This document shows, in pieces, positions 3,758-52,214 of a DNA stretch of 64,000 nt. This DNA is from Eledone cirrhosa. Taxonomy: Eukaryota. Positions within the stretch are counted from its first letter, which is position 1; each line of letters begins with the position of its first letter. Location of the stretch: NCBI GenBank assembly GCA_964016885.1, contig OZ024745.1:71548001-71612000 (forward strand), given 5' to 3'. The position numbers and the translations under genes were made by a program. The notes under the pieces were generated by a model. That model saw only the letters and a program-made list of their open reading frames with translations, was not told the origin of the DNA and searched no databases.

Positions 3758-3889
3758 AAGTTTATATAGAAAAGGCTTCGACAGGACTAGTACTGTTTCA
3801 TTCGTATGAAATCATCAGGAATGCCCTCCTGGTGATTTCATACGAATGAAACAGTACTAGTCCTGTAGAAACATTTTCTATATAAACTT
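3758..3889. ncRNA. Palindromic element with type I hammerhead-ribozyme motifs (best copy on minus strand, 3828-3771)
   Basis: Inverted arms of about 63 bp flank a 6-nt loop. The minus strand reads GAGGGC-A-UUC CUGAUGA UUUCAUACGAAU GAAA CAG UACUAGUC CUG UC^GAA GCCUUU, giving the conserved core, stems I and III, and a GUC cleavage triplet. Confidence 0.65.
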
Positions 3890-4019
3890 GTCTTCACTCT
3901 ACACATGTATTGAATATTTACTGTGGTTACCCCCAACCCAACTCAGGATCTACTTAGCATACACACACACACACACCATCGGCATATCATTTAACATCCA
4001 TTTTTCCACATGCGTGTGT

Positions 4020-5924: not shown

Positions 5925-6145
5925 CCCTTTAGCATTTAAACCAGCCATATCCAGCCAGAATTCTCTCAACTCTTTCTGTTCAAACCAGTCGTAACTAGTC
6001 ACTCATACCAATGTTAAGGTATTGTTCTCAAAATAAATAATATCAAAATCTCATAGATTCGATATTGTGTGAGATAATTATGTGAGATAAAGCCGTTACC
6101 ATGAAAATACAACAATATATATAGAGTAATGTGAATTCTAAAGGG
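5925..6145. mobile_element. piggyBac-type MITE (second copy at 37255-37453)
   Basis: Termini TTAA|ccctttagcatt...aattctaaaggg|TTAA. A similar internal sequence with TTAA flanks occurs at 37255-37453. Confidence 0.75.
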
Positions 6146-6691
6146 TTAAACTGCCTCTGGTTATGATATGAAACTCTTTGTTTTAAAGTGCTTATAATGA
6201 TTTCTAATTGAGGAAAATTTGGAGGAAAATCAAAGTTGATTATATCAGCCCCAGTACTTGATTGGTACTTTATTTTATCTACCCCAGAAGGATGAAAGGC
6301 AAAGTTGACTCATGGCAGAATTTGAACTCAAAAAGTAAGATGCCAGAACAAATACTGCAATAGCATTTTATCTGAAGCTCTACTAATTCTGCCAATCCAC
6401 CATGCTGATAAGTTTCTTGGGTTGTCTGAATATTGATATTCACTATTACTTGAAGTTAGAAAAACAATTTCTTTAATATCAAGTATGTAAGGACCAAAAA
6501 GGAAATTAAATTCCCTTTCAAACATTTTGAAAGCCTTCAGCTATGCAATTTGGAAACTGATGACATAGTGCTGAATAAACAGGCAAAACTCCAGAGTAAC
6601 AAGACTCCCTTTTTAGCCTTAATAATATTGAATATCAAACCTTTACTTTGGCATTGAGTACTCCTTTCTCTCAGCCGTCAACCATATACAG

Positions 6692-6732
<41 letters not shown>

Positions 6733-7028
6733 TATATTACGCCTCAGTGTCCTTCTTTGTCTGCATGTTGGACAACAGTCCTTATTCTTCTGTTTTATTA
6801 TTTCTCTCCTTTCTATGTTTTTCTCCTTCGGCTAAGCCCTGGCACACTCTATATTATTTGTGTAATTGACCTAAAAGCATAACTTGTCTCTACCTGTTTT
6901 GTAATGTTCCAATGTGCACTGGAATGAATAGTATCAACCTTAATATCATCTAAACTATAGTGATTTCCAGAGGTTCACTGTCTGTCTTTCCATTTTTTTA
7001 ATTGTCTTTGTCCTGCGTGCTCCCTATT

Positions 7029-7059
<31 letters not shown>

Positions 7060-7260
7060 TAGGGTGAGTAAAATTCCAGAGATCCATGGACGAGTTATTT
7101 CCAGCGATCTCTGTCCTTCATTATCACTGCTATGTCCTGCATCTCCCAGAGACCAGTGTCCTCTGTGTTACTTTCAAATTAACTTTGTATATATGTATGT
7201 ATGTATAAATATATATCTGTGTGTGTGTATATATATATATGTGTGTATGTGTGTGTATAT

Positions 7261-7513
7261 AAGAAGGCTGCGTTGGTATGCACATGGAGGATGACCACTG
7301 GGTAAGGAAGTGCCAAGAAATCCCAGTGGAAGGAAAACGCAGTAGCGGAAGACCATGAAAATCATGGGTGGTGTAGGTGAGAGCTGACCTCAGATCGCTG
7401 AAGCTCACAGAGGAGATGACGAAGGACCGTGACGAATGGAGAGATGCTGTGCTAAATAGGACCCATCCCACCCTTGCAAGCAAGGAAAAGCGGATGTAAA
7501 ATGATGATGATGA
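7261..7513 (+). mobile_element. RTE-clade LINE 3' end with (TGA)n tail
   Basis: Reads RRLRWY.H..GRP.KSW..V.ADL..L.L..EMTKDRDEWR. The final ~50 bp is nearly identical to the SINE tail at 2732-2785 (opposite strand). Confidence 0.75.
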
Positions 7514-7553
7514 TATATATATATATGTGTGTGTCTGTGTGTGTATGTGTATC

Positions 7554-7603
<50 letters not shown>

Positions 7604-7609
7604 TGTGTG

Positions 7610-7673
<64 letters not shown>

Positions 7674-7690
7674 CATATGTGTGTGTGTAT
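7514..7690. repeat. Compound (TA)n/(TG)n microsatellite (representative of dozens, e.g. 24680-24752, 43355-43396, 51525-51556, 61290-61331)
   Basis: Direct inspection. Confidence 0.95.
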
Positions 7691-10600
7691 CATCAAAACA
7701 GACATTAAATAATTGTTTCTACTTTAGGCACAAAGCCAGCAATTACCCAGTAATGAATAATGATAGATATTATTATTAACACGAAGCGAAGGATCTGAAA
7801 ATGTTGTCGTCATGACTTTCACCTACACAAATACAACTAAATCGAGAGGAGCCTCTAGGTGATCACTGAACCTGCAAGAGATATGAACCAAATCACAATC
7901 TACTCTTTTGAACAATGATCACTACATTGGATAATATAGTCTTAGATATACTATATAAAAGATGGGGTGATCAAAATTGGAACAGCTTTGATCAAAGATC
8001 TGCTAAACTGTGGCTGGCTTTAGGCTAAACAACAATGTTATGAAGGAAACAAGAGGCAAAAAATATACTGTTGAACCTGCTCTCCATTTTATTGTTGTAG
8101 CATGAAAACAATCAATTTTATATCCACTCTCAATTATCAATTAATTAATGATGAAACAAGCCTATAGTCCATACAGTTTATAAACTAAGATAACCCAGAA
8201 ACGATGTAGCTATTTTAGTTACATAAATATTTGTCATTTAAAATATGTATGAGGCAACTTTGTAATCCAATCATATTATTAAGTATGAATAAACAAGATA
8301 AAGTCAGTGACTAATATGTATATAAACACTAGATATATAAACCAAGATATATAAACATTAGGTGTATTGACCTTGAAGTCAACTTTGCCTGCCAATGTTA
8401 ACTTTATCTTTCACCTTTTAAGGATCAATGAAATCAAATACCAGTCTAAGGTAGTGGATTGACTGGATTTTTAGAGCATCAGACAAGATGTTTTGCAGTA
8501 TTTTTTCCAGCTCATTTCACTTCAAGTTCACTCCAAGTATGGCCTACTTAATTTGTCACCTAGATTACCTCACTGATTAAATAGTAAAAAAAAAACAATC
8601 CTGGGATCATGTCGCCATTTTAGTTATATAAACTGCAGTCAGTGTTGCATGTCCTCCTTAAAATGTAGTTGTGTCACTGTTCTGTGTATTACACGTATCT
8701 GCAACAATGATGATGATTTTGAAATTGTGTTGTCATTTAAAATATGCGTAAAACACTTTTGTAATGTAATTATCTTATTAAGTAACAAATAAGTTGTACA
8801 ATAAGTATGAATACACAAGATAAATACACTGATTATTATGTATATAAACAGTTCCAGTAAAATATTTATATGAAATCAATAATTTGTTGCAGAGGTAAGG
8901 GTATTGAACTGGGTCATAGTTTAAAATGGCCTTTCTTTATTGCCCTAAAATTTGCTGAGGTCAACTTAGCCTTTCAATCTTTCTGAATTAATAAAATAAA
9001 TACTATTAATTCTACTGAAAGATAATATATAGTGACAGAAGGTACATCGACCATTATACAATCAGAATCTGATGAAATAAAATTAAAAGTGGTGAATGAT
9101 TACATTTTGAATAATTTTCATGACTATGACAAAAAGGGTGTATCAAAAGATTATTTTACAGAAAAACAAGTTTGAAATATCTCTTTAGTTCAAATTTTCT
9201 GCATTATCAGTCTCCAGCTACAATATGTTTTACTTTTTCTTACATTAATTCTTTTTACATGGTTTACATTCAATGCTCTATACCAGAAAATTGTACAGTC
9301 ATACAAACTCTGGATATTTGCATGTCTGAGGCAAATATTTGCAGTGAAGCTATCCTTTCTGCAAATAGATCAAACGTGAAATAAATTGGTTTTCCGTGAG
9401 AAAGAGGGAAAGTCTAATGTTTATAATCACTATTTACCAACAAAGACCAGCACTAGTTTTATCAGATACTGCTGTTTACTTTATCCTTTCTAGAGTTTAT
9501 GAATCATGAAATGTGAACAGTATCTATTTTCAACTTGGCTTGAAAATGCATTCAGTAGAATATAAACTCTAATAGTGGACACAGCATAGCTGGATGGCCA
9601 AGAAGTTTGATTTGCAATCATAAGATTTTAAGCTTAATCTCACTGCATGGCATCTTGAACAAGTATCATTTACCATAGGTTCAGGTTGTCCCAAACTTTT
9701 TGGAGTGAAATTGGATAAACAGAAACTGTTGCGAAACCCATAAGGACTGTACCTGTAATTTAAAGAGCCAGTCATATTGCACACTGTCTCAAGCTGAATC
9801 TCACTTACAATTAAGTTAAGGGTACATGTTTGTCGAATACTCAGCCAATTGCCGTTAATTTCATGAGAAGGTCATTCTATTGATTGAACAACTCAAATGC
9901 TTATTGTCAAAATCAACAGAGGTTCATTTCATTCTAAGAGATCAGTTGTGTAGCAACATAGTTAAAGTATGTCTCAAACTTTGAGAATCATTGGGTCAGA
10001 GCCTATCTCAGTTTCCTTGGAGTTAGCAACTGAGAGTATAAGACTTCACCTTGGACAGGATGCCAGTTCATTACAAGGTTATTCCCCAGTCACAGTTGGT
10101 ACTCAATTTTCTATTCACTTACATGGACTGGAGTAATGTAAAATGAAGTGTCTTATTCAAGGACACACCACATTGCCTAGTCTGGGAATCAAACTCACTA
10201 CTTTACAATCGTGAGCTGAACATCCTAACCACAAAGCTACCTACTCATGACTGATTATAAAATAATATACTGACAATAATTTTGAATCCAGAATTCCACT
10301 TGATGCCGCATTGACTGTGTGTGTGTATGTTTATCTTGATATGTGTCTTCACATTGACACTGCTTGTGTAGTCAGTGATATTTATGTCCCAGAGCCCAAC
10401 GATGCAACATGTGAAGATGAGTGGAGTAAATACATTACTTAAAAACAAGCAATGATTGGGATCAGGAATGGCATCTAGCAATAGAATACAGCCTAAAACA
10501 AAACACCCATCCAACCCATATCAACACGGATAAACAAATGGGAAAATGATGATGTCAATAACAGTGACCATTAAATTAATGTGCTCGATATACTCAAATC

Positions 10601-12958
10601 ACCTTGGTTTCAACTCATATATTTACTGGTGTGCTCTCCCTCAGATAAAACATGTAATAACTTTGATTGCCTTAGTTTTTACTATTATTGTTGTTGTTTT
10701 GGTTCAAATCAAAGATATTCTAGCTATGTCCATCCACTGTTTTGTATACTCTTTTGACTGTTCTACACTATGGGCTGTGGCCATGATGAGACACTGCAAT
10801 CAGTGTATCTAGAACTACATTGTTCATAGTGCCCTTCTATTTTTAAGATGGTAGAATATGATTTTATGGAAATTTGGCACTATTTCTAGCAAGTCAAGCA
10901 ACCATGTAGAGTCTCTCTAGTTAGCTCACTTGTTAGCTTTAGTTTATTTGAATGACAGTTGAGATGTTTAGCAATAGGAAAGACACCCAATTGTAAAAAC
11001 AATTATCCTATACAGGATACTGTGGTAAAATTGAATGTAAATCAGTGCAAACCAAGATATGAAGGAAACATTTACAAATAGCAAACCTTGACATAAGCAT
11101 AAGGATATAAAATTTGAAGTGGGGATTAATCTGCACTACAACAACAAATATTTAAAGGTTATTTTCCCAGATAAAGCAAGGGTTAGCCTTGTATGAACCA
11201 CGACAGAGCCTCATAATCTTCATGAAGTGCTTTTTGAAGCAATATTTTATAGCCAGATGTCTTACTTGGTAACATCCCTTTTAGTTGCCTGTTACAACAC
11301 ACAGACATATCGTGTGCCTATTATAAACCAGATATACACTGTATAAGTGGTCGACAATACTTGACTTCTATGAATTTTATCAACTCTACTGGAAGGATTC
11401 AAGATAAATCTGACCTTAGTGAGGTTGGAACTCAAAATGTGAATGCATATAACTACATACCACAAGTCTACTGGTGCTGTCATTCACCTCCCTAAGCTTT
11501 GTCAAATAATTGTTTCTAACACAGGTACAAAACCATCAGATTGGAGGGAGAGCCTACTCAATTAAACCACTCCAATACTTGTCCAGTACATAATTTTATT
11601 GAACAGATGGATGAAATGCAAAGTTGACTTTGGTGGGATTTGAACTCAGAATTTAAAGAGCCAGTACAAATATTACAATGCATTTTGTTCAATACACTTA
11701 CAGTTCTGCCAAGCCCTCAACCTAAGCATCAACTTAAATATTTCTGGAAAAACAAAGATCAATTAACCTAATTATATAAATCAATTAAAATATTGTCCCA
11801 AATATTGTATTGTTTATTAATTAGTGCAAAAGATAGTGCTTTTTAATCAGTCAAAATGAAATAGAGGGATTAATTCATATTTTCTTTCCCATTTTCTTTG
11901 TTTTAAATTCATTTTCCAACAATTTTTCCCAGCAAATTTAGATGGGGTGATTTTTTTTATTTTCATTTATTTGTTTGTTTATAATTTTCTTTGAATAGTT
12001 AAAATAGATATTCTAACTATTAATCCTTCAACCATATCTGATTGATTGAGGTTAGTAGGACAAGTTGACTCATTCATCACTTGACTAGAAGTTGTGAATT
12101 AGCAGAAGTATTAGAACATCAGACTAAATGCCTTGTGGTATTTACTTTGGTTCCTTGCATTCTGAGTTCAAATCCCACTGAGGAACCATGTTTTCCTCCT
12201 TCTGAATAAATATAGTACCCGTCTAGAACAGTGAATTGTCAGTATTGTTAGAGCTCTGGATGGAATGTCCTGTGGTATTCTGTGCTGCTTTGGCCTACTT
12301 AGGTGGAACAGTTAAACTGTCATCTGATTTAACACTACCACCTGGACATTGGATACTTTTACTAAAGTCCATTTTGTTGTAAGCATTCAGGCCAGTCTTT
12401 TGGGTCCTGAAAAGGGGCATCAGCACTGCTCTTCCCTGCTGTCTAATACAAAAATAATAATAGCAAGTGTTGAATTCATGACTTTAGTACAATCAGTTAA
12501 CCTTACTACATTTCACATAATTGGAACTCAAAATAAGACTGGTGGGTTGGATTTAGAGTGTCGAAAAATAATGCCTAATGGTATTTATTCTGACTCTTTA
12601 CATTCTTAGCATGGTCAACTTTCGATTCCATCCTTCCAAGTCAATAAAATAAAGTACTAGTCAAGTACTAGGGTCAATATAATCGATTTTCCCCTCCTCT
12701 CAAATTGTTGTCTAAATGAGAAAACATAAGGGTTAGCAGAATCATTAGAACATTGGACAAAATGTTTAACGGGTTTTAGTTATGAACCTTTACATAGTGA
12801 GTTCAAATTTTGCTATGGTCAGCATCGCCTTTTGTCTTTATAGAATTGATAAAATCAAGTAGCAGTTAATTACTGGGATAGGTTAAATTTAATTAGAAAC
12901 TATCATTAGAACTCAGAAACTTATAATGAAAAAGAACAAAAGTTAATGAAAAGATTAC

Positions 12959-13708
12959 CTCCCAAGGATGACCTGAAAGTAAGCTGTCCTCAATAACACA
13001 TTTAGCTAAAGCACACAAGTTTTCAGTGTCCAGACGTCCACTGGTATCACTTTTTGATTTCTTAGTCCTGGGTCTTTGGATCTGATAAAGGAGTTCTGGA
13101 TGATCTCTTTGAAACAATGGATGGTAATACTCATAGGTCAAATGCCTTTTGTCAGAAGTTTCCTCTTGCCCAGAGTTCAGTACGTGATCGTAATAATCCA
13201 TCTTATCACAGCTAACAAGATCAGCCGAGACACTGTTGCCTTGTCCTTGAGAATTTGCTTTATCTGATGCATATTTGAATGATTCAACTGCTGAATCATA
13301 ACCATCCTGATAGATATTCTTTTTTCTTTCTGTTTTCCGGCTGGCTAATATCCGAGACATTTTGCGGAAACCATACATGTTCAATTGGCGGATAAAGCTT
13401 CTAAAGTTTTTTGTTTTAAAAGACCAGAAATATACTGATTCATTAGAGGCCATTGGTACCAAAAGAAATGGCGATTTCTGCGGTATGTTCTCTATTGAAG
13501 CAGCTGATGAGTTTTGCGATGATGGTTTTAATGATGTTGCTAAATACTGATTTTCAAAATCAGTCTTGTTGATACGAATAGAACAGCCATCAGCTCCCCA
13601 TGAAATGGCTCCAGTCTGGCAATGATTGGTGATCCGCCAAAGTTTCACTGGGAACCGACTAACAACTCGGTCACTAACAGACTGCTTCAATGGTAGAAGT
13701 TTTGGCAT
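12959..13708 (-). CDS. HSF5-like heat shock factor, first coding exon (HSF-type winged-helix DNA-binding domain, about 13654-13073)
   Basis: Translation contains FPVKLWRITN..AISWGADG..FENQYL, FKTKNFRSFIRQLNMYGFRKM and EYYHPLFQRDHPELLYQIQR, the HSF DBD signature. FP.KLWR and FKT.NF.SFIRQLN.YGFRK are closest in style to HSF5. Acceptor tctttattttcag precedes 13727, ATG is at 13708, and donor GAG|gtaatc follows 12959 (phase 0). Confidence 0.88.
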
Positions 13709-13904
13709 TTCGGTTTCCTTTTCTATACTGAAAATAAAGAAATCAATATATAAATCAAGTGGGTGTGTATACATCATCATTTTATGTTTATACATACATG
13801 CATAGCTAGACAGACTAAAATAAGTTAGTTTTACTGATATAATGTCCCCCCACAACATTTTGTCACCATATATAGGTGGATAGTATATTTTGAGTTCATC
13901 CCGT

Positions 13905-14274
13905 CTTTGCTACTTAATCGAAAGATAAGATTTCAAATTTAAGGATGGACAAATGTTCAAAATAAAAGAAAATTTCACCTGCAACTTGGAAAACCTAATC
14001 TATGTGATTACATGCTGTGGATGTCTGCAAAATTACATAGGGCAGATGGGGGATTTCCTTATGCAAAAGAATGACCATATACCGCCAACAAATCTATAAT
14101 GAAAACATAAGAAATATCCCCGTAAGCAGCCACATTACAGCATATGCAGGATTAGATATACCCAACTTCAAAATTTTCCCACTCTACAAATGTTCAGACT
14201 CTTTCACTCAACAACAGAAAATAAATAAAGAAAAACAATTCATTAAAAAATATAAACCAAAATTAAATATGTAA
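13905..14274 (+). mobile_element. Penelope-like element fragment, GIY-YIG endonuclease
   Basis: Reads FKFKDGQMFKIKENFTCNLENLIYVITCCGCLQNYIGQ, then a frameshift, then RMTIYRQQI..PVSSHI..KEKQFIKKYKPKLN*. This is the typical PLE GIY-YIG C-terminus. A probable 3'UTR continues to about 15100. Confidence 0.85.
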
Positions 14275-16112: not shown

Positions 16113-18310
16113 TATAATAATGAAATTATTGTGTAGAGTGCTCAGGTGCACTACAACTTGTCAAAGGTGCATGTATAGTACATAGAATAATACACAAATG
16201 TCAGGGAAGGGAATAGTGTACGAGTCATGATATACATGTGTGTATGTGCATGGAGGGGGAATATTAGTTGTAGTGTTTGCGAATCTCGGGAAGCATGGAG
16301 GCCTTAAAGGATGCAGTGTCTCGACAGCTAACAACCGATGCAGGTAGTTTGTTCCATGCTTTAGCAACTCTGAGCGTGAAAAAATGTTGCCGAAAGTCAT
16401 GGGAACTGTGCTGTTTTCTGACTTTGTGGGCATGCCCACATGTGTTAGACACATGGAAATCAAAAAGGTACTCAGGGTTGTTGTTGGCAAGATGGTTAAC
16501 AATTTTGTGGGTGTTTACCAAGTCAGTTGCCAGGCGTCGGAGCTTCAATGTATCCATGCCCAGGGAAGCAAGGCGCTCAGAGTATGGTAGATGCCTGATG
16601 GGGGGTATTCGCTTGGTTGCACATCTCTGAACAGTTTCCAGGCGGTCAATGTTCTGAGCAAGATAGGGGTTCCAGACTGGTGATGCAAATTCTAAGTGTG
16701 GCTGCACCATAGCTATATACAGCTTTAAATAGATAGCTGGAGAGCGGCTGACAAAGGTCTTGCTGAGTGATGCTAAGACATCCTCAGCCCTCTTGACAAT
16801 TTTAGAGACGTGCTTCGTCCAACGCAAATCGCTGCTGACCATAATGCCCAGGTCACGTTCACAAGAAGACTTCTTGATATTAGTGCTGTGGAGGGAGTAT
16901 GTGGACGCTGGGTTTTTACTCCCAAAATGCATGGTGGTGCACTTGTCCACAGCTAGCTTGAGTTGCCAGTCTGAGATCCATTGTTGCATTGTGTCCAGGT
17001 CAGACTGCAAGCAAGATCTATAGTGTTCAGGATCTGTCCTTTTTATCTCAAGGTACAGCTTGATGTCATCTGCGTACTTTAGTACTGTGGAATTCTTTAA
17101 GTTGGCATCTATGTCATTAATATATGCCACAAACAAAAGTGGGCCAAGAACAGATCCCTGTGGTACACCAGATGACATCTCATATGGTGAGGAATGCTGC
17201 CCCAGAACTGTGAGTACCTCTTTTCGACTGAGAATGAAGGACTTCAACCAGTTAAAAAGATCATCCTTCACACCCATTGCAGAGAGTTTTGCAATAAGCC
17301 TTTTGTGTGACACAGATGTGAAAGCTTTCACAAAGTCAAGGTAAACAACATCCACCCATGAGCCGCCATCAGTGATCCGGGTGATGTCTTCAAGAAACTC
17401 GATAAGTTGATCACAGCAGCTGGAGTTGGGGATAAATCCAAATTGCGAGGGCCGGATAAGACTGTGAGAGTTCCAGAAGTTCCAAAGTGTTTCTCTGACA
17501 CAGGATTCCATCAGTTTGGCAATGCAACTACTAAGACTGACTGGACGATAGTTCACAGGTGATGTGCGGTCACCCTTTTTGAACAGAGGAATGACACTGG
17601 CAGTTTTCCACTGTTCTGGAATAGCATCGTTGTTCAGACAGAATTGGAAGAAGCATGATAACCGGTGCAGAAGGAAGTACCCACAACGTTTAAGAAGCAG
17701 GTACGTAACACCATCAAGACCAGGAGAGGCATGGTTGCGTTTATTTTTTAGGTGATGTCGCAGCATTGCAGGTGTAAATTCCATGGTTGTAATAGAGTCC
17801 GGTGTCATAGGTGGTGGAGATGGTACACTCTGGTCTTCAATAGTGAAAATGCCTGCATATCATTCAGCAATGAGCTCTGCGCATTCTTTGGGGTCGTCAG
17901 TAACCTGGCTTGTGTGGGGATTGTGAAGAGGACCAACTGGAGAGTGAGGCCTCTGCTTTGAGTGAACTTACTTCCAGAACACCTTACTGTCAGGGTTGGT
18001 TGCTATGCGCTGCTCAAATTGAAGCACTGCCTTTTTTCTCACCTGTTTGAGGAGGTTGGACGATCTATTTCGCCTCTTCCTATTAATGTCTGATTTGTGA
18101 AGTTTGTACTCACGTTCAGCATTGCGACGTTCTTTTCTGGCAACACGAACTGCTGCAGTCTCCCAAATTGCACTTTTGGGATGTTTTTTCCGCTTACGTG
18201 GCACTGATGCTGCACATGCTGTCCATATTGAGCTCAGGATGTTCTGGAGTACAGTATTGACATCTCCAGAGTCGTAGAACTCAAGCCAGTTTGGCCGTTG
18301 CAACTCGGTA
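16113..18310 (-). mobile_element. 5'-truncated CR1/L2-type LINE, reverse transcriptase nearly intact
   Basis: Motifs SPGLDG, PLFKKGDR..NYRPVSL, YLDF.KAF, SGVPQGSVLGPLLF, YADD and RDLGI are present. ORFs 18339-17968 and 17808-16264 share a frame, split by one stop. The 3' end reads tagtgcacctgagcactctacacaataatttcattatta. No endonuclease domain. Confidence 0.93.
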
Positions 18311-27900: not shown

Positions 27901-28633
27901 GGCGATATCCAATTTTAGCTGTCTAAATGCCGCTTACTTGCTGCAGTTGCTGCTTACTTCAATGTATGAGGCTATTCCAACAAATTTACATTCCCCTTTT
28001 TTCGATTTATTTGCCACTGGGGCATAGATTTCTTTATTTGCCCCTTTTTTGTTTGTTTGTTTTTTTGCGATTTATTAGCCTTTTGGGGTCACACACGCCC
28101 CCGTAGAAAGTGTGCGACCTTTCTGCCAGGGAGCACAGAGAGAGGGGGGTGCTCCCTTCTCTTACCTGTACAAGCCGATATAGAGAGATGGCCCACTTAC
28201 ACGGGCCATTATTGCTACTTTCACCCATCTTTCATGGAATTGGCTGGGACTGAGTGCCTTTTTCGGGTGAAAGTAGCAATAATGGCCCGTGTAAGTGGGC
28301 CATCTCTCTATATCGGCTTGTACAGGTAAGAGAAGAAGGGAGCACCCCCTCTCTCTGTACTCCCTGGCAGAAAGGTCGCACACTTTCTACGGGTGTGTGT
28401 GACCCCAAAAGGCTAATAAATCGCCAAAAAACAAACAAACAAAAAAGGGGCAAATAAAGAAATCTATGCCCCAGTGGACAATAAATCGCAAAAAAAAAAA
28501 AAAAAAAATCTATATTTCTTTTAACGGCTAAAAAAAGGGGGAATGTAAATTTGTTGGAATAGCCTCATACATTGAAGTAAGCAGCAACTGCAGCAAGTAA
28601 GCGGCATTTAGACAGCTAAAATTGGATATCGCC
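27901..28633. mobile_element. Foldback-type non-autonomous DNA transposon (Merlin- or Mutator-like)
   Basis: Near-perfect inverted arms at 27901-28226 and 28265-28633 with a 38-bp spacer. Termini are GGCGATATCC...GGATATCGCC. Direct repeat cagtcttt at 27893-27900 and 28634-28641 is an 8-bp TSD (a 9-bp reading is possible). Confidence 0.85.
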
Positions 28634-30492: not shown

Positions 30493-31785
30493 CAGGGTGT
30501 GGACGATATTTGTTCGCAATTTTCAACTGCTAATTTTATCCAATTTTTTTTACTTCCGTTGTCACTCTTGTCTTCATAAAAACTGACTATATTTCCATTA
30601 TTTATTTTCAGAATAATTGATTATGAATAATTTTGAACCTCCAAATTTGTGAAAGAGACACGGACTTCTTCTTAGAATCTGCACCGGGAGGACAAATAAG
30701 GAAACTTCAGACTTTCTCAGCGTCAGCAGGAGAATGGTGGAAAAGGTCAGAAAGGAATTGGAAGATTCAGGATTCGACTACGAAGCAACATCAGAGAGGA
30801 AAACACATGATCGACGATCTGACGCCTTCAGAACGCCCAAGTTCGTCACTGAAGTTCAGGATATCATCAACAATGAAACTAGCAAGTCGATGCATGCCAT
30901 TGCAAGGGAGAAAGGCGTGGATGAAAAGCTCATTAGGCTGGTGGTACATGAAGACATTTGCTACGTTTCATACAAGATGAGGAAAGGACAATTTCTGTCA
31001 AAGGCGATGCAAGAAAAGCGACTGAAGCATGCAAAGAAGCTGATCAACAAGTTGAAACACCCACTGGAGCCAAACATGCTGTGGTTTTTCTCCGACGAAA
31101 AAAACTTCTGCCAAGACCAGAAGTTCAACTCCCAGAACAACAGGTGGCTCGCTGTCTCATCCAAAGACGTGCCCAGAGTCATGCAGACAAAGTTTCCAGC
31201 GACAACATTGGTCTTAGGTGTCGTCAGCAGTCAAGGTGACGTCATGCCACCTCACTTCTTCCCTGCGGGCCTCAAGCTGAACCCCGATGGCTACATCCAC
31301 ATTCTGAGCGAGGTAGTAAAGCCCTGGATCGACCAGGTAGCTGCAGGTAGGCCGTTCGTGTTGCAGCAAGACTCAGCGCCCTGCCATACCAGCCGAAAGA
31401 CCCAAGCCTGGCTATCAGAGAACTTCGTCGACCACACTTCACCTGACATCTGGCCTCCCAGCTCGCCTGACTGCAACCCCCCCGATTTCTTTGTGTGGGG
31501 CGCAGTGGAACGAGACACCAACAGATCTAGCTGCAATACGAAAGACGATCTGAAGGCCAGGATCACAAGTGCCTTTAGGGGCCTAAGTCGGAGGACAGTG
31601 ACGAAGGCCTGAAGCCTCTTCCGAGGCCGTCATCAAAGCTAATGGCGGGTTTATCGAGTGAGATCGAAAGAAGAAGTCCTGAAGACAAACTGATCCAAGT
31701 TTGATAAATATATCTTAAAAAATAAAACTAGTGTGTTATTTTTTCCTAGACAGTAATCTTGTGAACAAATATCATCCGCACCCTG
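30493..31785 (+). mobile_element. Full-length Tc1/mariner transposon, DD37D (maT) family, inactivated
   Basis: 27-bp TIRs (cagggtgtggacgatatttgttcgcaa, 3 mismatches) are flanked by TA. The transposase has FSDEK, QQDSAP and SPDCNPPD, with 37 residues between the 2nd and 3rd D. ATG is at 30623, with premature TGAs at 30650 and 31610 and a small 3' deletion. Confidence 0.93.
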
Positions 31786-32122: not shown

Positions 32123-32421
32123 TGCAAAGCGTAAACAGAAACAACAAAGCAAACAGTACAATGAAGAAATATATTAGTTTAAAGATTGATATAGTCTGAA
32201 AAGAGTCTTTACATTTCAGACACTAATCCTTCATCAGAAGATAGAATGAGAAATAAAAGATAGAAAGATAGAGAAGAAGAGGAAAGAACAGAAAAAGCAC
32301 TTCTGATAAAGGACTAGTGACTGAAACGTAAAGATTCTTTGCTACTGCATCAAGCATTAAACTAATATATTTCTTCATTATACTGTGTTGTTTGCTTTGT
32401 TGTTTCCATTTACTTTTTGCA
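32123..32421. ncRNA. Different inverted-repeat element with minimal type I hammerhead motifs on both strands
   Basis: Arms of about 118 bp surround a purine-rich spacer. Minus 32240-32207 reads CUU CUGAUGA AGG-AUUAGUG-UCU GAAA UG UA^AAG. Plus 32300-32333 reads CUU CUGAUAA .. GAAA CG UA^AAG, with a palindromic ACGU stem III. Confidence 0.6.
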
Positions 32422-32432
32422 TATATATATAT

Positions 32433-32537
32433 AAATGAGTTCCAGAGGACTAGAACTGTTTCATTCATATGAAATCATTAGGAATATCCTGATGATTTCA
32501 TACGAATGAAACAGTTCTAGTCCTGTAGAACTCATTT
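32433..32537. ncRNA. Second copy of the palindromic hammerhead element
   Basis: Inverted arms of about 51 bp. The + strand at 32489-32530 reads CUGAUGA UUUCAUACGAAU GAAA CAG UUCUAGUC CUG UA^GAA. Confidence 0.6.
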
Positions 32538-32689
32538 CTTTATATAATAAAGATGCCTATACTCTACCAATGTATTGAGTACCTTTTTAACTGTGGTTAA
32601 TTCATGACACCGCTCGTAACCTACATATATATATATACTTAGGCTTAGATTTAGATCCTCCTGTGCTAAGTAGCACATTGGCCAACAGT

Positions 32690-52010: not shown

Positions 52011-52093
52011 TGCAGGATCCCGATGTGAAAAAGGTACTCAATACGTTAGTAGATTATAGGTATATTCATTTTTATAAACATAGAAATCACTTC

Positions 52094-52175
52094 TACAGGA
52101 CTAGAACTATTTCCTGTTTCATTCGTAAGAAATCATCATATGATTTCTTACGAATGAATCAGTGCTAGTCCTGTA
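52094..52175. repeat. Third, decayed copy of the palindromic hammerhead element (in dynamin intron 1)
   Basis: Arms tacaggactag..ttcattcgtaagaaatcat and atgatttcttacgaatgaa..ctagtcctgta. The central CUG of the core is lost. Confidence 0.6.
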
Positions 52176-52214
52176 ATCATTCCTATGATAAAATAAATAT
52201 ATGTGTGTGTGTAT

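What the first reader, a model, noticed from the sequence alone, without database searches (positions are those of the whole stretch)
3758..3889. Palindromic mini-elements encoding a hammerhead ribozyme on each strand
Seen: a ~130-bp hairpin whose minus strand (3828-3771) folds into a type I hammerhead. It has a 9-bp stem I with one bulged A (GAGGGC-A-UUC / GAA-GCCUUU), the CUGAUGA core, a short stem II, GAAA, a stem III ACAG/CUGU closing a near-palindromic ACUAGU loop, and a GUC cleavage site. The plus arm carries the mirror motif (CUGGUGA..GAAA..GUA). The same element recurs at 32433-32537 and 52094-52175, each next to a shared g.attga.ta flank and AT microsatellite. Established: Penelope-like elements and non-autonomous retrozymes carry type I hammerheads, often with palindromic stem III that allows dimeric cleavage. 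Inference: this is a non-coding, ribozyme-bearing mobile family that could self-cleave whichever strand is transcribed. The 3771-3828 copy is sense to the HSF5-like transcription direction. Caveat: the stem II closing pair is U-U, not canonical.
Basis: partly seen in the sequence, partly recalled or inferred. Interest (0 to 1): 0.75.

Follow-up and report, generated by a model that had tools for sequence, protein, structure and literature searches.

The report
Penelope leader copies forming hammerhead hairpins
This hairpin is two back-to-back copies of the ribozyme-bearing end of a Penelope-type jumping gene, a known kind of insertion; the copies likely come from the capped start of the gene's own RNA, and the ribozyme is predicted to be buried in the hairpin.

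Summary
The palindrome (3758-3889) and its hammerhead motif are real, but it is not a stand-alone two-strand ribozyme element. It is two head-to-head copies of the hammerhead end of a Hydra-clade Penelope-like retrotransposon (PLE), plus a one-sided tail of about 67 nt, in (TA)n. The family has roughly 70,000 insertions.

An intact sister element (L137) has the homologous hammerhead and tail running into a PLE ORF; two copies of the window's own subfamily also run into that ORF start. The U·U pair is usual in Hydra hammerheads. Only 1 of 6 arms in the window keeps both core and stem I, and read-through RNA is predicted to bury it (about 62 kcal/mol).

34 of 36 palindromes carry exactly one tail and none carries two. 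One insertion is spliced in both arms. Cleavage and the transcription start are untested. The scan noted PLE hairpin stubs before on other DNA.

The parts
3758..3826 (-). Tail-less inverted copy of the PLE leader (hammerhead unit). Begins at G3825 (GGCAUUC), preceded by one G (3826) that the parent lacks.
   Evidence: parent sequence. The G at 3826 could also come from the other arm.
3774..3825 (-). Type I hammerhead motif: stem I 3825-3819 / 3779-3774 with bulged A, CUGAUGA 3818-3812, U·U 3811/3800, 3-bp stem II, GAAA 3799-3796, 4-bp stem III, predicted cut between 3780 and 3779
   Evidence: activity untested
3827..3889 (+). Direct copy of the same unit; core A6G, 5' strand of stem I mostly lost at the junction
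3890..3956 (+). One-sided PLE tail; in full-length relatives it runs on into the ORF start
32424..32624 (+). Second insertion: palindrome 32424-32546 and tail; plus core intact with 2-bp stem I, minus core G5A
52013..52185 (-). Third insertion: tail about 52013-52079, palindrome 52080-52185; C3-U4 lost on both arms, insertion in loop III

Best explanation
The hairpin is two head-to-head copies of the hammerhead-bearing end of a Hydra-clade Penelope-like retrotransposon, one with a tail and one without, likely made by reverse transcription of the capped 5' leader of the element's own RNA and predicted to be a promoterless dead end. SHOWN: homology of arm and tail to the pLTR end of an intact PLE; tail on one arm only; short copies start 30 nt after the parent's TATA-like box, often with an extra G; variable junctions. 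INFERRED: the pLTR promoter starts transcription at the first base of hammerhead stem I. The PLE protein nicks both strands of a (TA)n site and primes at two internal sites on the RNA (arm end, about +65; tail end, about +135), as shown in vitro for another PLE. On a promoter-initiated RNA both cDNAs reach the cap after 65-135 nt, the cap is copied as an extra G, and the two cDNA ends join by microhomology to give the palindrome. Full-length copies need a read-through RNA whose 3' copy of the same sites is used. The ribozyme is under selection in the parent lineages, where it would cut about 45 nt after the start; in the palindromic copies it is a passenger.
For: Parent link: copies with a shared ~550-nt upstream pLTR lie downstream of one GIY-YIG ORF family; in L137 and 7 other of 19 ORF loci the hammerhead and tail lie directly upstream of the ORF (protein). 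Window-type copies L015/L156 and L158 run from the tail into the same ORF start, and window-type long copies share the TATA-like box. Start site: base TATA+30 is the A of AGATTC (2 young copies) and the G of GGCATTC (5 old copies). Old-subfamily solo copies joined to (TA)n: 7 of 8 start at that G and 5 have an extra G; no long copy has TATAAA..GGGCATTC. Young subfamily, hand tally of 72 places in the first 100 of 443 rows: 47 read AGATTC, preceded by G 21, T 12, A 4, templated C 10; 25 start one base later. Extra G 21 of 37 against at most 1 of 30 near the cleavage site, Fisher p 1.5e-6. Tail on exactly one arm in 34 of 36 palindromes, on both in 0. The commonest junction occurs in only 7 of 36. 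Arms agree at subfamily sites (22 of 23 and 23 of 23 informative) but are only 87% alike against 85% between copies. Long pairs have asymmetric junctions (L119, L128, L133, L135, L148). Both arms of L135 lack a GT-AG intron that 26 of the 28 listed copies retain.
Against: No RNA data: the start site and cap are inferred from DNA alone. No intact ORF was found for the window's own subfamily; the intact parent is a sister at about 76% identity. The young family's start overlaps a splice acceptor, so a second, unseen donor ending in GAG could mimic part of the extra-G class (one weak candidate at L137:3492). RTs can also add bases without a cap. The 12 T-preceded cases are ambiguous with the microsatellite. 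About 27 of the 36 palindromes were found with a tail-containing query, one pair (L162) is probably mis-paired, and the 2 without a detected tail are damaged or cut off. The 7 identical junctions could be a small palindromic master lineage. The active hammerhead fold is not the predicted minimum even in the parent leader (4-12 kcal/mol above the ensemble). Stem I covariation is modest: 2 pairs, 6 cells, 6 of 500 shuffles, on 11 hand-picked rows; stems II and III do not vary.
Confidence: 0.72

Rival explanations
1. Same PLE origin, but the minis are ordinary, randomly 5'-truncated copies of the 3' end of full-length RNA; the reverse transcriptase stalls at the hammerhead structure and adds a base.
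For: Truncation occurs all along the element. 5' truncation with an inverted partner is the published pattern (PMC8557442). A structured RNA could stall RT.
Against: 5' ends fall at TATA+30 in two subfamilies with different first bases and drop sharply upstream: 10 of 72 extend further, 4 of them by two or more bases. The extra G is specific to that site.
Confidence: 0.15
2. Fold-back: one cDNA snaps back at its 3' end and primes its own copy, possibly from an antisense template as proposed for rotifer PLEs.
For: Palindromic junctions with microhomology; arms agree at subfamily sites; both arms of L135 are spliced. Self-priming was proposed in PMC3846280.
Against: The tail-less arm often extends further 5' than the tailed arm (about 15 cases against 7-9 by hand), which snap-back of a tailed cDNA cannot give. 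Long pairs join unrelated points. The extra G and the spliced copy point to a sense template.
Confidence: 0.08
3. One reading: a non-autonomous retrozyme- or MITE-like palindrome that is itself transcribed, self-cleaves on either strand and is mobilised as a unit.
For: Very high copy number; one junction recurs in 7 of 36; one intact motif in the window copy.
Against: No promoter in the minis, heterogeneous junctions, solo copies as common as palindromes in the random sample (5 against 4), arms decay independently, hairpin outcompetes the ribozyme by about 62 kcal/mol, no tandem units.
Confidence: 0.05

Closest known systems
Hydra-clade Penelope-like elements (Craig et al. 2021, PMC8557442), including Hydra-1_Obim
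   Same: Single ORF of about 713 aa with C-terminal GIY-YIG, RW(R/K), DKT, CxCX5C, CxxC and CxH; (TA)n targets; hammerhead near the 3' end with U after A9 and U before G12; inverted 5'-truncated partner; one-sided tail.
   Different: A different family: its core string and N-terminus were not found in the paper's supplement. Stem III is 4 bp with an 8-nt loop (published Hydra loops are 1-3 nt). The tail is about 67-70 nt (30-40 in the paper). The 3' UTR is long and microsatellite-rich and lies inside a GT-AG intron.
Poseidon PAc of Anolis (Frangieh et al. 2024, PMC11167929)
   Same: Two internal RT start sites bounding the tail, both target strands cut and extended, uncleaved RNA as main template: all match the genomic pattern here.
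   Different: Another clade; shown in vitro there, inferred from insertions here. In the parts read, the paper does not describe short leader-only insertions or a cap-derived base.
Drosophila virilis Penelope (PMC4209133, PMC2377424)
   Same: Intron whose 3' end meets the 5' strand of hammerhead helix I; inverted terminal repeats.
   Different: There the promoter is TATA-less and the 75-bp intron begins 46 bp after the start; here a TATA-like box lies inside a ~2.2-kb intron and the inferred start is at helix I itself.
Animal non-LTR retrozymes (10.64898/2026.07.22.740005)
   Same: Non-coding, type I hammerhead, PLE-derived.
   Different: Retrozymes are tandem head-to-tail units with a hammerhead in each; these are head-to-head or solo.

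Membership tests
Type I hammerhead ribozyme | Core CUGANGA, GAAA, NUH with three stems | tested here: met
   Window minus arm and family; only 1 of the 6 arms in the window
Type I hammerhead ribozyme | Core conserved more than loops; compensatory changes in stems | tested here: met
   (126 arms). Covariation only in distal stem I and modest
Type I hammerhead ribozyme | Match to an Rfam hammerhead model | tested here: not met
   the models may not cover the U·U variant
Type I hammerhead ribozyme | Self-cleavage | not testable with these tools
   No pile-up of insertions starting at the cut site: 11 of 30 places within -2..0, 7 at +1, 6 at -3/-4 (hand tally)
Hydra-clade PLE (parent) | Single ORF, RT plus C-terminal GIY-YIG | tested here: met
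   L137 ORF with YRDD and GIY-YIG-like region. PF01541 below cut-off, E 0.001-0.002, on L119/L131; no Pfam RT hit; 1190 homologues, top ones 38-53%
Hydra-clade PLE (parent) | RWK-type motif, DKT, CxCX5C linker, CxxC and CxH | tested here: met
   RWRAFF, SDKTKN, CNCLNKEAC, CDLC, CMH read against PMC8557442 section 11 and printed Hydra proteins
Hydra-clade PLE (parent) | Hammerhead in pLTR, (TA)n insertion, inverted copy, one-sided tail | tested here: met
Hydra-clade PLE (parent) | Placement in an RT phylogeny | not tested
   Reference Hydra proteins were seen only in a paper supplement, not held as stored sequences
Non-LTR retrozyme | Tandem head-to-tail units each with a hammerhead | tested here: not met
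   Copies are head-to-head or solo
Non-LTR retrozyme | Circular RNA | not testable with these tools
   No RNA data
MITE or fold-back DNA transposon | Symmetric terminal inverted repeats and a fixed internal sequence | tested here: not met
   One-sided tail, variable centre, PLE parent

The most novel reading that the evidence does not exclude
These tens of thousands of mini-insertions are a fossil record of the PLE reaction: both arms are cDNAs primed at two internal sites of one capped, uncleaved, sense RNA by a dimeric enzyme and run off its cap. The hammerhead sits at the very first bases of the mRNA, where cutting at about +45 would remove the cap and act as a switch between translation and copying, and splicing of read-through RNA swaps its stem I.
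Probability: 0.45. Interest if true: 0.65.

Novelty: new member of a known kind. Interest (0 to 1): 0.42.

Why it matters
How PLEs make inverted ends and tails, which strand is the template, and what the hammerhead does are stated as open in PMC3846280, PMC8557442 and PMC11167929. A young family with an intact ORF, a predicted start site, a 135-nt leader and thousands of short products makes these directly testable. The family also scatters roughly 30,000 long hairpins (4 of 9 sampled insertions) through a 3-Gb genome; in transcribed regions they would form double-stranded RNA (inference). As a claim of a new two-strand ribozyme element, the finding is ordinary.

Tried and rejected
Rfam: no hammerhead hit. 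Scanning 30 GIY-YIG loci for the element found only one neighbouring stub; the parent's endonuclease scores below the Pfam cut-off. The endonuclease fragment after the tail in L011 belongs to another Hydra family and was rejected as parent. Pattern searches for a long copy with GGGCATTC gave none or one palindrome. The paper on dimeric PLE hammerheads (Lunse et al.) is not held. The fuzzy scan timed out and was replaced by nhmmer. Cofolding two monomers favours a dimer, but the predicted structures are not clearly the catalytic dimer, so it was not used. A Helitron/Helentron reading of the small terminal hairpin was dropped once the PLE ORF was found. Look-up of earlier findings by sequence was blank.

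Full report
Observation. The window holds a 132-bp inverted repeat at 3758-3889 (63-nt arms, 94% complementary) and two relatives at 32424-32546 and 52080-52185. The minus strand 3825-3774 has all hammerhead core residues and three stems. Rfam finds no hammerhead. Only this one of the six arms keeps both core and stem I: the plus arm reads CUGGUGA with 2 bp of stem I, the 32 kb copy has a 2-bp stem I on one arm and G5A on the other, and the 52 kb copy lacks C3-U4.

Family. A search of the 3.0-Gb genome gave 1778 candidates, of which 40 were scored. The 27 distinct loci printed show the palindrome plus a tail of about 70 nt on one side, mostly between AT-rich microsatellites. In 39 stretches at round-number positions (389,800 bases) there were 13 arms in 9 insertions, 4 palindromic and 5 solo, and none in the reversed control. 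That scales to about 69,000 insertions (95% range 32,000-131,000). The host looks like an octopus from genome size, repeat content and earlier AI notes; I did not test this.

Parent. Two copies with shared upstream sequence (L064, L069) led to a young family, 95-97% identical, 2711 candidates. In several of 20 stretches fetched, one GIY-YIG ORF family lies upstream in the same orientation, followed by a microsatellite-rich 3' UTR and a ~550-nt pLTR ending in the hammerhead. Of 19 ORF loci, 8 have the hammerhead and tail directly upstream of the ORF, and L137 has an unbroken frame. The protein has RWR, DKT, YRDD, CxCX5C, CxxC and CxH, the Hydra-clade marks in section 11 of PMC8557442, and resembles the Hydra proteins printed in its supplement (by eye). 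This family is a sister of the window's (about 76%). For the window's own subfamily, L015/L156 and L158 continue from the tail into the homologous ORF start, and long copies carry the same TATA-like box. No intact ORF of that subfamily was found.

Ribozyme. Over 126 ungapped arms (of 131 distinct; heavily weighted to the two families searched), core and stem II/III columns are 92-99% constant apart from a CpG site (86%) and one loop III site (85%), while loop II and distal stem I differ by subfamily. Stem I variants pair: GGC(A)UUC/GAAGCC, AGAUUC/GAAUCU, GGAGCUUC/GAAGCUCC. On 11 hand-picked rows this gives 2 pairs and 6 cells with double changes, 6 of 500 shuffles, which is modest. The family triplet is GUA. 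The U·U at the foot of stem II occurs in 14 of 25 Hydra families in File S2 of PMC8557442 (hand count). The isolated window arm reaches the active fold at 3.7 kcal/mol above the ensemble, the parent leaders at 5.7-11.9; in the palindrome the cost is 62-65 kcal/mol on either strand. Read-through self-cleavage is therefore unlikely.

How the minis arise. Of 36 paired arms, 34 have the tail on exactly one arm and none on both. About 27 came from a tail-containing query, which does not bias against two tails; long young copies carry the tail in 20 of 40. The spacer between arms varies from a 3-nt overlap to 15 nt, and the commonest form occurs 7 times. Arms agree at subfamily sites (22 of 23, 23 of 23) but are barely more alike within a copy than between copies (0.874 against 0.848; own arm best in 2 of 27), so they were made together and then decayed separately. 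Long pairs join unrelated points, as in L119, where 380 nt of pLTR meet ORF base 278.

Start site and extra G. Base TATA+30 is the first base of stem I in both subfamilies. Old-subfamily solo copies joined to (TA)n start there in 7 of 8 cases, 5 with an extra G, whereas the parent reads CC or CT before it and no TATA-bearing copy has GGG. For the young family I tallied by hand the 72 places in the first 100 of 443 rows: 47 read AGATTC, preceded by G 21, T 12, A 4 and templated C 10; 25 start one base later. Near the cleavage site, 30 places are spread without a peak and at most 1 has an added G; Fisher p 1.5e-6. Copying of the cap as an extra G is known for other retroelements (recalled, not looked up). 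Both arms of L135 lack a GT-AG intron ending at stem I, which the other 26 of 28 listed copies keep, so the template was sense RNA and both arms probably came from one molecule. Against this reading: no RNA data, a splice acceptor overlapping the young start, and possible cap-independent base addition.

Comparison with print. Inverted truncated partners, one-sided tails and (TA)n targets are described (PMC8557442: passages, section 11, supplement passages and part 2). Palindromic junctions were read as self-priming on an antisense template, left open (PMC3846280: passages). Two internal start sites, two-strand extension and uncleaved template were shown in vitro (PMC11167929: parts 1-2 of 4). 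PLE hammerheads, opposed pairs and the intron at helix I are in PMC4209133 (parts 1-2 of 4). Also seen: PMC2377424 and PMC6765202 (passages), the retrozyme preprint (part 1 of 5; supplements closed) and PMC13282606 (part 1 of 3). Eight searches showed no listing on leader-only PLE insertions with an added G; the library lacks most subscription papers and Repbase, and I did not check the octopus repeat library, which may hold this family. Earlier AI notes, seen after my reading was formed, reach the same PLE-stub verdict on other DNA; they are not independent evidence.

Verdict. A real feature and a new member of a known kind. The PLE origin is about 95% sure; the capped-leader, two-primer mechanism about 70%. 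Interest 0.42.

Noticed in passing
L135:2694(+) and 428(-); intron in L131 about 5945-8194: Both arms of one insertion lack a GT-AG intron running from about 85 nt after the stop codon to the base before ATTC of stem I; the other 26 of 28 listed copies retain it. Splicing would cut stem I from 6 to 4 bp.
   Followed up: partly
L011, L032, L060/L068, L076/L077, L055: Several unrelated hammerhead motifs, some beside PLE ORFs, also have U after A9 and U before GAAA; the L060/L068 family reads CAGAAGA in the core.
   Followed up: no
L026, L055, L063, L073, L074: Insertions often sit tail-to-tail across one (TA)n run, next to other PLE ends.
   Followed up: no
window 3930-3950 and family tail ends: Small hairpin (CCCGA-N6-TCGGG type) at the tail end in old and young subfamilies; a candidate signal for the RT start.
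   Followed up: no
window 12893-13909 (-): HSF-type DNA-binding domain exon (PF00447, E 4e-19).
   Followed up: partly
window 30653-31612 (+): 319-aa Tc1/mariner-like transposase frame (weak DDE_3 and HTH hits).
   Followed up: partly
window 16264-17859 (-): 531-aa LINE-type reverse transcriptase frame (PF00078, E 9e-37).
   Followed up: partly
window 27997-28494: A 500-bp foldback with 91-95% complementary arms, unrelated to this family.
   Followed up: no
window 32123-32421: Another inverted repeat with CTGATAA..GAAA between its arms, next to the second copy; perhaps another PLE end.
   Followed up: no
L066:6710-7619, L076:7918-9901, L118:9075-9901: Tandem 310-510 bp units each with a hammerhead-like core: retrozyme-like arrays of other families.
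   Followed up: no
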